The position numbers and the translations under genes are program-made. A stretch of DNA of 16,684 bases, taken from the IMG/VR virus record IMGVR_UViG_2526164618_000010. One strand, given 5' to 3'. Below are positions 6,776-7,612 of the stretch, piece by piece (the stretch's first letter is position 1; each line of letters opens with the position of its first letter). The notes beneath the pieces were generated by a model. The model was given only the letters and a program-made list of their open reading frames with translations. It made no database searches and was not told the DNA's origin. This DNA comes from a virus. Lineage: Duplodnaviria > Heunggongvirae > Uroviricota > Caudoviricetes.

Positions 6776-7132
6776 TTATTCAGTTCTGGATTTTGTCGCC
6801 CTGCGTATCCGCGCTTTCGCGTTACGCTCAATCTGTATCAGCTTTTCTATATTTCTCCGCCTTTCCTGTTCCTCCTGGCGCAATAGCCTTACATCATCTG
6901 CCAGTCTGGTTTCTCTTTTTGCCACAGAGAGCATCCAGTCAAACGGCTCCACAACCGCACCGCAGATTTTACAGCGGACCTGACGCTCTTTTTCGTCAAC
7001 CCGTACAGAGGCGTGATGGCAATATGGTCTTTCCGATGGCTTATAAAGAAAATTAACCTGATTACGAGGGTCATCCTCTTTTATCGGAAATAAAACGATA
7101 TTGCTTAACTCATCTTCTGGTTTTATTTCCAT
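6776..7132 (-). CDS. hypothetical Zn-ribbon protein with basic coiled-coil tail (118 aa)
   Basis: Start ATG at 7130-7132 is preceded by AAAGGAGAGG. An alternative ATG at 7187-7189 directly follows the upstream TGA (TGAATG coupling) and would give 137 aa. Motif PYCHH…CKICGAV then ERRRNIEKLIQIERNAKARIRR. Confidence 0.55.
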   Translation of the reverse strand: MEIKPEDELSNIVLFPIKEDDPRNQVNFLYKPSERPYCHHASVRVDEKERQVRCKICGAVVEPFDWMLSVAKRETRLADDVRLLRQEEQERRRNIEKLIQIERNAKARIRRATKSRTE

Positions 7133-7189
7133 GCTCCTCTCCTTTGATGCGAATGCCAGCGGTAATTGAAGCCTGATAGCTAATTTCAT

Positions 7190-7612
7190 TCACAGTATCG
7201 CCTCCTGAAAATTACCCTGATAGAAAGCCAGTACACGCTGCATAGCTTCGCTCTTCCGGCACTCGCGACAGATTATATTCAGGCGCCTGTCGTAGCGGCG
7301 TATTTCTCCGTCAGGTAATGACCAGATAAGGTCCGGATCAACAACAACCGGTTTCCTCACCTTTACTCTCGAGAGTTTTTTGCGGGCGCTTTGCCAGTCC
7401 TTGCGAGCCTGTTCAGACGGGAATAAGCCGTAGCCAGAATTATATACATCACCACTTGCGACCAGTTCTATGCATAAGCGACCGACAGACGCACGACTGA
7501 TACCTGTTTCATCGGACAACTGCCGAATCGTGACCCGACCGTCCTGATGCACGAGTTCCACAATTCGCGTCTTCAGTTCTTCCCGCTGTTCGGGAGTAAA
7601 AGGTTTCGCCAT
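7190..7612 (-). CDS. winged-HTH DNA-binding protein with C-terminal CxxC (possibly YdaW-like), 140 aa
   Basis: MAKPFTPEQREELKTRIVELVHQDGRVTIRQLSDETGISRASVGRL… Strong SD CAGGAGG 5 nt upstream of the ATG; last gene of the replication cluster. Confidence 0.6.
   Translation of the reverse strand: MAKPFTPEQREELKTRIVELVHQDGRVTIRQLSDETGISRASVGRLCIELVASGDVYNSGYGLFPSEQARKDWQSARKKLSRVKVRKPVVVDPDLIWSLPDGEIRRYDRRLNIICRECRKSEAMQRVLAFYQGNFQEAIL

What the first reader, a model, noticed from the sequence alone, without database searches (positions are those of the whole stretch)
6776..7612. Two uncharacterised small proteins (wHTH 140 aa and Zn-ribbon 118 aa) translationally coupled between the DnaC-like gene and the QueH-like gene
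Both have good ribosome-binding sites and protein-like composition but match no family I recognise (not NinB/NinG/Q-like). The wHTH stop and the alternative start of the Zn-ribbon ORF form TGAATG, suggesting coupling. They occupy the slot where lambdoid phages keep nin/Q-type regulators or accessory cargo. With the QueH-like gene they form a three-gene block that could be a single functional module, regulatory or anti-host, of unknown function.
Basis: inference. Interest (0 to 1): 0.5.

Follow-up and report, generated by a model that had tools for sequence, protein, structure and literature searches.

The report
Ren-like and zinc-ribbon prophage accessory genes
The two small genes are real, but they are ordinary and already catalogued lambdoid-prophage accessory genes: a relative of phage lambda's Ren protein and a widespread zinc-ribbon protein of unknown function, placed side by side by recombination rather than forming a dedicated module with the QueH gene.

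Summary
Both ORFs exist on the minus strand of a decayed, IS-ridden Rac-like prophage that matches Shigella flexneri.

**Gene 1 (7190-7612, 140 aa)** is a full-length DUF977 protein (PF06163). It is a homologue of phage lambda Ren: both match phrog_142, hhalign gives 94% probability, they share a C-terminal motif, and both sit directly after the replication genes.

**Gene 2** starts at 7132, not at the TGAATG, and is 118 aa (6776-7132).
- It has its own Shine-Dalgarno sequence and lies 57 nt after the DUF977 stop, so overlap coupling is not supported.
- It belongs to phrog_1621 (unknown function). It has a CxH…CxxC zinc ribbon and a ~55-residue helix ending in a conserved ERNAKARIRR motif.
- It matches no Pfam family and no solved structure.
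- Outside Escherichia it lies between NinG/RusA/YbcO and the Q antiterminator gene.
- In E. coli it follows an ead/Ea22-like gene or DUF977.

**Co-occurrence in 5,426 complete E. coli genomes**

| Feature | Genomes |
|---|---|
| Zinc-ribbon gene | 1,679 |
| DUF977–zinc-ribbon junction | 964 |
| Zinc-ribbon–QueH junction | 2 |

There is no three-gene module. Both genes are under purifying selection, but their biochemical functions remain inferred. Interest is low.

The parts
7190..7612 (-). DUF977 / Ren-like gene (140 aa). It has an N-terminal winged helix (about residues 7-83), a poorly modelled linker, and a C-terminal motif NIICRECRKSEAMQRVLAFY.
   Evidence: PF06163 E 1e-33, full length. phrog_142 'Ren-like exclusion protein' E 3e-44; lambda Ren hits the same PHROG at 1.6e-41. 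hhalign against lambda Ren gives probability 94% and E 1e-7. BLASTP finds the shared C-terminal motif, 12/20 identical. AF2 model. dN/dS 0.18-0.24.
7613..7626 (-). 14-nt spacer between the ydaV stop codon (7627-7629) and the DUF977 start codon. It carries the Shine-Dalgarno AGGAGG (7617-7622).
   Evidence: Read directly from the sequence.
7133..7189 (-). 57-nt spacer between the DUF977 stop (7190-7192) and the conserved zinc-ribbon start. It contains the non-conserved in-frame ATG at 7187-7189 (the TGAATG) and the conserved Shine-Dalgarno AAAGGAGAGGAGC (7133-7145).
   Evidence: The DNA alignment of five contexts is conserved only from about 30 nt upstream of the ATG at 7132. The protein alignment shows the N-terminal extension is absent in other genera.
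6776..7132 (-). Zinc-ribbon/coiled-coil gene (118 aa, phrog_1621). It has an acidic, disordered N-terminal tail with the motif ELSNIVLFP, a CxH…CxxC zinc ribbon (residues 38-57), and a ~55-residue helix (63-117) ending in NIEKLIQIERNAKARIRR.
   Evidence: phrog_1621 E 1e-55. 148 homologue clusters across Enterobacterales. 1,614 clusters at 50% identity with E<=1e-3. Invariant residues. AF2 model, pLDDT 73. dN/dS 0.08-0.15, with synonymous sites saturated between genera.
6629..6775 (-). 147-nt intergenic joint between the zinc-ribbon gene and QueH. It contains the hairpin CCGCCC-TTTC-GGGCGG (6690-6705), which has no U-tract. The stretch 6690-6750 is shared by two otherwise different contexts, so it is a mosaic recombination joint.
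   Evidence: In one search, QueH-context genomes match window 6540-6750 and zinc-ribbon-context genomes match 6690-6880, while only 2 genomes span both. No terminator was called here. The fold z-score is -2.2.

Best explanation
These are two unrelated, independently mobile accessory genes of the delayed-early rightward (pR) operon of a defective Rac-like lambdoid prophage.

Gene 1 is the Ren homologue of this phage type (DUF977). It is a small winged-helix protein encoded directly after the replication genes. By analogy with lambda Ren, it most likely acts at or near the phage replication complex and protects the phage from abortive-infection systems of the Rex type. It is unlikely to be a classical promoter-specific repressor. 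This function is inferred.

Gene 2 is a nin-region protein (phrog_1621). It is made from its own ribosome-binding site at 7132. It most likely forms a coiled-coil dimer or oligomer through its long helix. In this model the zinc ribbon and the basic conserved C-terminal end (ERNAKARIRR) form a nucleic-acid-binding or polymerase-binding surface, and the acidic N-terminal tail with its short hydrophobic motif docks onto a partner protein. The partner may be an Ead/Ea22-type protein, to which the gene is sometimes fused. This mechanism is inferred with low confidence.

The two genes are co-transcribed here and are often neighbours in E. coli, but modular recombination put them there. The QueH gene downstream is separate cargo.
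For: Identity of gene 1:
- Full-length DUF977 match and a shared PHROG with lambda Ren.
- Profile-sequence alignment to Ren over its whole length.
- Shared C-terminal motif.
- The same slot after a DnaC-type loader, a lambda-P-type loader or an HTH initiator.

Literature for gene 1:
- Ren interacts with Rex proteins in a two-hybrid assay and is described as 'likely involved in DNA replication' (bioRxiv 10.1101/2021.04.19.439022).
- The Rac DUF977 gene ydaW scored as a blocker of the retron-Sen2 toxin RcaT (bioRxiv 10.1101/2020.06.22.160242).

Gene 2:
- The start codon and Shine-Dalgarno sequence are conserved.
- The zinc ligands and the C-terminal helix motif are conserved.
- AF2 predicts a ribbon followed by a single long helix.
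- Purifying selection.

Independence of the genes:
- In Klebsiella, Serratia, Erwinia, Yersinia, Photorhabdus, Phytobacter and others, the zinc-ribbon gene lies between NinG, RusA or YbcO and one of three unrelated Q antiterminator types, with no DUF977 or QueH within 6 kb.
- In Stx2a phages and in phage ArgO145 it lies in the leftward exo-xis region, after an ead/Ea22-like gene.
- E. coli genome counts are: DUF977 3,617, zinc-ribbon gene 1,679, DUF977–zinc-ribbon junction 964, QueH 995, zinc-ribbon–QueH junction 2.
- In-frame Ead/Ea22::zinc-ribbon fusions exist.
Against: - No experiment exists for either window protein. Even for lambda Ren the mechanism is unknown, so the functional part is analogy.
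- Pfam's DUF977 model does not itself score lambda Ren. The link rests on PHROG and hhalign sensitivity and on a 20-residue motif.
- DUF977 carries a ~40-residue insertion relative to Ren, and its C-terminal half is poorly modelled (pLDDT about 50).
- For the zinc-ribbon protein, no fold or sequence match goes beyond a generic TFIIB-type ribbon at a non-significant level. Nucleic-acid binding and oligomerisation are guesses from composition.
- Within Escherichia the two genes are adjacent in about 45% of zinc-ribbon loci, and DUF977 lies within 1.3 kb upstream in 68 of the 80 IMG/VR loci closest to the window. A functional pairing is therefore not excluded.
Confidence: 0.75

Rival explanations
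1. DUF977 and the zinc-ribbon protein form a dedicated two-gene functional unit in Escherichia and Shigella prophages, for example a counter-defence pair whose products act together.
For: - The exact junction, with the same 57-nt spacer, is present in 964 of 5,426 E. coli genomes, including ST131 strains.
- In the 80 closest IMG/VR loci, DUF977 is directly upstream in 45 of 78, while the downstream gene varies among at least six alternatives.
- Shigella flexneri carries two copies of the pair, only one of them followed by QueH.
Against: - None of 17 loci from other genera has DUF977 within 6 kb.
- In many E. coli prophages one or two genes (DUF4406, ead/Ea22-like) separate them, or DUF977 is absent.
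- In Stx phages the zinc-ribbon gene is in the opposite early operon.
- DUF977 occurs at about 5,000 places and the zinc-ribbon gene at about 2,100.
- There is no start/stop overlap.
- The adjacency counts are inflated by clonal lineages and by choosing the closest relatives.
Confidence: 0.13
2. The zinc-ribbon protein is a detachable C-terminal module or partner of Ead/Ea22-type developmental proteins, and works with them in the lysis-lysogeny decision.
For: - An ead/Ea22-like gene ends 1 nt before, or overlaps, the zinc-ribbon start in many E. coli prophages and in phage ArgO145.
- Natural in-frame fusions join the Ea22 N-terminus and coiled coil directly to residue 2 of the zinc-ribbon protein (P0002 on 4 contigs, P0004, P0242).
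- Ea22 proteins are described as modular, with variable C-terminal domains, and in phage 933W the C-terminal domain is encoded by a separate gene (PMC8614690; PMC10834534).
Against: - The fusion clusters are tiny (1 member each) and could be indel artefacts or pseudogenes.
- Outside Escherichia the upstream neighbour is NinG, RusA or YbcO, not Ea22.
- In the window itself no Ea22 gene is adjacent.
Confidence: 0.15
3. DUF977, the zinc-ribbon gene and QueH form one functional three-gene module.
For: The three genes are contiguous and on the same strand in the window, in two FDAARGOS strains, and in Shigella flexneri.
Against: - The zinc-ribbon–QueH junction is in only 2 of 5,426 genomes, although QueH is in 995.
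- In APEC O1-type prophages QueH directly follows DUF977 with no zinc-ribbon gene.
- A 147-nt spacer separates the zinc-ribbon gene from QueH, and it contains a shared mosaic joint.
- No other genus shows the trio.
Confidence: 0.02

Closest known systems
Phage lambda Ren (gene ren, NP_040633; PHROG 142 'Ren-like exclusion protein')
   Same: - Same PHROG, matched over the full length.
- N-terminal MarR-like winged helix.
- Shared C-terminal motif N-(I/L)-x-x-x-E-C-R-x-S-x-A-M-x-R-V-L-A-x-Y.
- Same gene position, directly downstream of the replication and helicase-loader genes in the pR operon.
   Different: - 140 aa against 96 aa. A ~40-residue basic insertion (residues about 60-100) is absent from Ren.
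- The Pfam DUF977 model does not score Ren.
- The Ren phenotype, escape from Rex exclusion, is known only for lambda (from my own knowledge of Toothman and Herskowitz 1980). It has not been tested for any DUF977 protein.
E. coli K-12 Rac prophage YdaW (DUF977, PF06163)
   Same: Same Pfam family and the same ydaS-ydaT-ydaU-ydaV-ydaW gene order.
   Different: To my knowledge, K-12 ydaW is a truncated remnant, whereas the window copy is full length. The only functional hint for ydaW is a screen hit as a blocker of the retron-Sen2 toxin RcaT.
PHROG 1621 (unknown function); RefSeq WP_001343130.1 'hypothetical protein'
   Same: The window's zinc-ribbon protein matches the profile over residues 1-117 of the 118-aa form at E 1e-55, and is 99% identical to the RefSeq protein.
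   Different: Nothing is known about the family, so there is no function to compare.
TFIIB-type zinc ribbons (PF08271) and ribosomal protein S27e ribbons
   Same: A small rubredoxin-like ribbon with two ligand pairs. The best Foldseek hit is the TFIIB N-terminal domain, 27 residues at rmsd 1.9.
   Different: - The score is below the Pfam gathering threshold (21.5 against 29 bits), and the Foldseek E-value is 0.3.
- The first ligand pair is CxH, not CxxC.
- The ribbon is followed by a single ~55-residue helix, not cyclin folds.
- This is a resemblance of a tiny fold only.
Named lambda and P22 nin-region proteins (NinB, NinD-NinI) and the DksA/TraR-like Orf73
   Same: Same genomic neighbourhood. 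In other genera the gene is the last or second-to-last gene before Q, after NinG or RusA.
   Different: No Pfam match to any Nin family or to zf-dskA_traR, even at E<=1. Phage-collection tblastn finds only 19 records, none of them lambda or P22.

Membership tests
DUF977 (Pfam PF06163) | Full-length match to the family HMM above the gathering score | tested here: met
   116.5 bits against a cut-off of 22.1, residues 1-136 on profile positions 1-134 of 134.
Ren-like proteins (PHROG 142 / lambda Ren) | Sequence homology to lambda Ren over the whole protein | tested here: met
   The window protein scores E 2.7e-44 and lambda Ren 1.6e-41 against phrog_142. hhalign gives probability 94% and E 1.3e-7, aligning residues 17-132 to Ren 7-93.
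Ren-like proteins (PHROG 142 / lambda Ren) | Gene located directly after the replication initiator and helicase-loader genes in the rightward early operon | tested here: met
   The gene starts 14 nt after the ydaV stop in the window. The same slot is used after lambda-P-type and HTH-type replication genes. Lambda ren overlaps the end of P.
Ren-like proteins (PHROG 142 / lambda Ren) | Confers escape from RexAB exclusion, or interacts with Rex or replication proteins | not testable with these tools
   Only literature on lambda Ren is available. No data exist for DUF977 proteins.
PHROG 1621 (zinc-ribbon/coiled-coil nin protein) | Profile match over most of the protein | tested here: met
   E 9.5e-56, residues 20-136 of the 137-aa ORF on profile positions 1-120 of 134.
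Zinc-ribbon fold (generic) | Two conserved ligand pairs flanking a beta-hairpin | tested here: met
   C38, C54 and C57 are invariant and H40 is at least 90% conserved in 68 distant relatives. AF2 places strands at 43-46 and 51-54. Zinc binding itself was not tested.
TFIIB zinc-ribbon family (PF08271) | Score at or above the Pfam gathering threshold | tested here: not met
   21.5 bits against 29. Foldseek E-value 0.3.
Named nin/Q proteins (NinB, NinE, NinF, NinG, NinH, Q) and DksA/TraR | Any HMM match | tested here: not met
   Neither protein gives a Pfam hit to these families at E<=1. NCBIfam gives none either.
Known anti-phage defence systems (PADLOC) | Match to a defence-system protein model | tested here: not met
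   Only sub-threshold HTH noise for DUF977 (E 0.002-0.007). Nothing for the zinc-ribbon protein or QueH.
Conserved three-gene operon DUF977 / zinc-ribbon / QueH | The three genes co-occur and stay adjacent across prophages | tested here: not met
   The whole block is in 2 of 5,426 genomes and the zinc-ribbon–QueH junction in 2. It is absent from all 17 non-Escherichia loci.
Translationally coupled gene pair | Overlapping or abutting stop and start codons that are conserved | tested here: not met
   The conserved start is 57 nt downstream of the DUF977 stop and has its own Shine-Dalgarno sequence. The TGAATG becomes TGAGTG in EC958 and is absent in other contexts.

The most novel reading that the evidence does not exclude
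The zinc-ribbon/coiled-coil protein may represent a large, wholly uncharacterised class of phage early proteins. The family has more than 1,600 clusters at 50% identity and no Pfam entry or solved structure. In Escherichia it may have been recruited next to the Ren-like DUF977 protein as a two-component counter-defence or replication-control unit. In that reading, the ribbon and basic helix bind nucleic acid or RNA polymerase, and the N-terminal motif recruits a partner such as Ea22 or DUF977.
Probability: 0.1. Interest if true: 0.5.

Novelty: already known. Interest (0 to 1): 0.2.

Why it matters
It matters little for discovery. Both proteins are already in RefSeq (DUF977 family protein; hypothetical protein) and in PHROGs, and they occur in thousands of E. 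coli and Shigella genomes.

Three small points are useful:
- The DUF977 = Ren equivalence gives an annotation handle for a very common prophage gene, present in 3,617 of 5,426 E. coli genomes.
- The zinc-ribbon start codon is fixed at the 118-aa form.
- The zinc-ribbon family is a widespread, conserved 'known unknown' of the nin region that lacks a Pfam model. Its occasional fusion to Ea22-type proteins gives a concrete partner to test.

Ren and the nin-region genes remain among the least understood parts of lambda biology, so any functional assignment would be of moderate specialist interest.

Tried and rejected
1. Fold searches of the zinc-ribbon model against PDB and BFVD, and profile searches against PDB sequences, gave only generic ribbon or coiled-coil noise.
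2. A Pfam scan of 68 distant family members found no family beyond sub-threshold Zn_Ribbon_TF and coiled-coil models.
3. PADLOC found no defence-system membership.
4. NCBIfam gave nothing for either protein beyond a weak HTH hit.
5. The search for related loci with the divergent alignment A3 failed because no stretch was conserved enough. I repeated it with A2.
6. The cluster look-up suggested a 'RusA family' name for a zinc-ribbon relative. The sequences show that the RusA members are unrelated to the zinc-ribbon protein, so I rejected this as a clustering artefact.
7. I looked for an intrinsic terminator or structured RNA between the zinc-ribbon gene and QueH. No terminator was called, no Rfam family matched, and the fold z-score was only -2.2.
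8. I considered a DksA/TraR-like or TFIIB-like RNA-polymerase binder. There is no HMM support and the topology differs (ribbon first, then a single helix).
9. I considered that the strongly conserved 3' end of the zinc-ribbon gene might reflect a DNA or RNA element rather than protein. I rejected this because synonymous sites are saturated between genera while the peptide is invariant.
10. A literature search for DUF977 gave one incidental paper, and nothing exists for the zinc-ribbon family.

Full report
**Context**

The window is a decayed, IS-ridden Rac-like lambdoid prophage. On the minus strand it carries, in order:
- a cro-like HTH gene;
- ydaT (PF06254);
- a ydaU-like initiator;
- a ydaV/DnaC-like loader;
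- the two genes of the finding;
- QueH;
- hokD/sok;
- an IS3-family element.

The replication module is dead. The ydaV gene has a TAG at the Walker-A lysine codon (8032-8034), and the ydaU gene has an 11-bp deletion. The closest public matches are two FDAARGOS 'E. coli' genomes at 99.6% identity and Shigella flexneri SFBU1023, where the proteins of the finding are 100% identical.

**Observation**

Two intact minus-strand ORFs fill the stated interval: 7190-7612 (140 aa) and 6776-7189 (137 aa), or 6776-7132 (118 aa). Both have Shine-Dalgarno sequences. The hexamer TGAATG is present.

The upstream ATG is not the real start of the second gene.
- In 22 homologues from eight genera the protein begins at the methionine encoded at 7132.
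- PGAP aa.
- The PHROG profile begins at that residue.
- A DNA alignment of five different genomic contexts is conserved only from about 30 nt upstream of that ATG, including AAAGGAGAG. It diverges completely further upstream, and in EC958 the hexamer reads TGAGTG.

The genes are therefore separated by 57 nt. They are probably co-transcribed, but they are not overlap-coupled.

**Gene 1**

The 140-aa protein is a full-length member of Pfam DUF977, scoring 116 bits against a cut-off of 22.

It also matches PHROG 142, 'Ren-like exclusion protein', at E 3e-44. Lambda Ren, taken from the lambda record, matches the same PHROG at 1.6e-41. A DUF977 profile aligns with Ren over Ren's whole length, with hhalign probability 94% and E 1e-7. 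BLASTP finds the shared C-terminal motif, NIICRECRKSEAMQRVLAFY against NLVFKECRQSAAMKRVLAVY.

AF2 gives a confident winged helix for residues about 7-83 and a poorly defined C-terminal half. Foldseek returns only generic MarR/IclR/GntR winged helices.

The gene always follows the replication genes, whatever their type:
- a DnaC-like loader in the window;
- a lambda-P-like loader in L010-L012;
- an HTH initiator in EC958;
- P in lambda.

I therefore take it to be the positional and sequence homologue of ren, with a ~40-residue insertion.

What Ren does is itself poorly known.
- From my own knowledge of Toothman and Herskowitz (1980), ren mutants become sensitive to Rex exclusion.
- A 2021 preprint reports two-hybrid contacts between Rex proteins and both O and Ren, and calls ren 'likely involved in DNA replication'.
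- A retron study lists the Rac gene ydaW among blockers of the RcaT toxin.

The mechanism I propose, a winged-helix protein acting at the replication complex to blunt abortive-infection triggers, is an inference from these points.

**Gene 2**

The 118-aa protein belongs to PHROG 1621, which has no known function. It has no Pfam, NCBIfam, PADLOC or PDB relative.

Homologues occur across Enterobacterales. A profile search finds 1,614 clusters at 50% identity with E<=1e-3.

The conserved features are as follows:
- an acidic, disordered N-terminus with the motif E-L-x-N-V-V-x-F-P;
- ligands C38, H40, C54 and C57;
- a DPFD turn;
- a long helix ending in the almost invariant NIEKLIQIERNAKARIRR.

AF2 (pLDDT 73) predicts a small ribbon followed by one ~55-residue helix. 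Fold searches return only TFIIB-type ribbons at non-significant scores.

dN/dS is 0.08-0.15 within E. coli. Synonymous sites are saturated between genera while the peptide is kept, so the conservation acts on the protein.

My best mechanistic guess is a coiled-coil oligomer with a basic nucleic-acid-binding or polymerase-binding end and an N-terminal docking motif. It rests on composition and architecture only.

**Co-occurrence**

The table gives counts among 5,426 complete E. coli genomes.

| Feature | Genomes |
|---|---|
| DUF977-like DNA | 3,617 |
| Zinc-ribbon gene | 1,679 |
| QueH | 995 |
| DUF977–zinc-ribbon junction | 964 |
| Zinc-ribbon–QueH junction | 2 |
| Whole block | 2 |

In APEC O1-type prophages QueH directly follows DUF977 with no zinc-ribbon gene between them.

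In E. coli the zinc-ribbon gene also follows an ead/Ea22-like gene. This happens both in the nin region and in the leftward exo-xis region of ArgO145 and Stx2a phages.

In 17 loci from other genera, neither DUF977 nor QueH lies within 6 kb. In those loci:
- The upstream neighbour is NinG in 9 loci, often with an ATGA overlap, or RusA or YbcO in others.
- The downstream neighbour is a Q antiterminator of one of three unrelated types (PF06323, PF06530, PF03589) in 15 loci.

Among the 80 IMG/VR loci closest to the window, DUF977 is directly upstream in 45 of 78 and 600-1,300 nt upstream in 23. The downstream gene varies among at least six alternatives.

The 60-nt stretch 6690-6750 is shared by the 'downstream of zinc-ribbon' context and the 'upstream of QueH' context, so it is a typical mosaic joint.

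From this I conclude the following:
- The three-gene module is refuted.
- A looser DUF977–zinc-ribbon association exists within Escherichia. Gene order in the post-replication segment, together with clonal sampling, explains it. I still keep a functional pairing as a minor rival.

**An extra lead**

Natural in-frame fusions join an Ead/Ea22 N-terminus and coiled coil directly to residue 2 of the zinc-ribbon protein (P0002, P0004, P0242).

Ea22 proteins are described as modular, with variable C-terminal domains that can be encoded separately. This makes an Ea22-type protein the most concrete candidate partner. The fusion clusters are tiny, however, and may be indel products.

**Verdict**

The features are real, but they are ordinary and already catalogued.
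- 'No recognisable family', 'translationally coupled' and 'three-gene module' do not hold.
- I rate novelty as already known and interest as low (0.2).
- There is a roughly 10% chance that the zinc-ribbon family, alone or together with the Ren-like protein, hides a genuinely new early-phage function.

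Noticed in passing
window 8032-8034 and about 8562: The replication module is inactivated. The ydaV/DnaC-like gene has AAG->TAG at the Walker-A lysine codon, with an adjacent Gly->Asp change. The ydaU-like gene has an 11-bp deletion relative to FDAARGOS_944. The two small genes downstream remain intact.
   Followed up: yes
P0002, P0004, P0242 (homologues); compare L008 5439-6399 and L013 3989-5357: Natural in-frame fusions join the Ead/Ea22 N-terminal domain and coiled coil to the zinc-ribbon protein from its residue 2. 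In many E. coli prophages the two are adjacent or overlapping separate genes. This may be a Rosetta-stone link or may be indel artefacts.
   Followed up: partly
window 5942-6628 (-): A prophage-borne QueH (epoxyqueuosine reductase, PF02677) is carried as cargo. The same gene is in 995 of 5,426 complete E. coli genomes, usually directly after DUF977. E. coli normally uses QueG (from my own knowledge), so it is unclear what a phage gains from QueH.
   Followed up: partly
window 6690-6750: A 60-nt segment with the hairpin CCGCCC-TTTC-GGGCGG is shared between genomes where it lies downstream of the zinc-ribbon gene and genomes where it lies upstream of QueH. It looks like a recombination linker at a module boundary.
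   Followed up: partly
window 5559-5884 (-): A hokD-type toxin ORF (70 aa as listed) lies with a full-length sok antisense RNA (Rfam RF01794, 117 bits).
   Followed up: no
window 12825-13781 (+), with 12984-13060 and 13085-13172: isrK (RF01394) and C4 antisense RNA (RF01695) matches lie inside the listed 318-aa Ash/Rha ORF. This suggests a P1/P7-type antisense immunity element, and that the real Rha/antirepressor start lies downstream of the RNAs.
   Followed up: no
window 953-3332, 4109-5312, 11157-12430, 14295-15424: Four insertion sequences, one of the IS66 family and three of the IS3 family, break up the prophage. RecE-like (Exonuc_VIII) fragments at 15449-16093 are inverted relative to the reference. 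This pattern is typical of Shigella genome decay.
   Followed up: partly
P0250 cluster: The 90% cluster listing for a Serratia zinc-ribbon homologue contains genuine RusA proteins that share no similarity with it. This is a clustering or look-up artefact that could mislead annotation transfer.
   Followed up: yes
L019 (MAG 'Collinsella sp.') and L024 ('Ursidibacter maritimus'): Near-identical (95-96%) copies of the E. coli zinc-ribbon gene sit on very short contigs assigned to unrelated taxa. These are most likely contamination or mis-binning in those assemblies.
   Followed up: no
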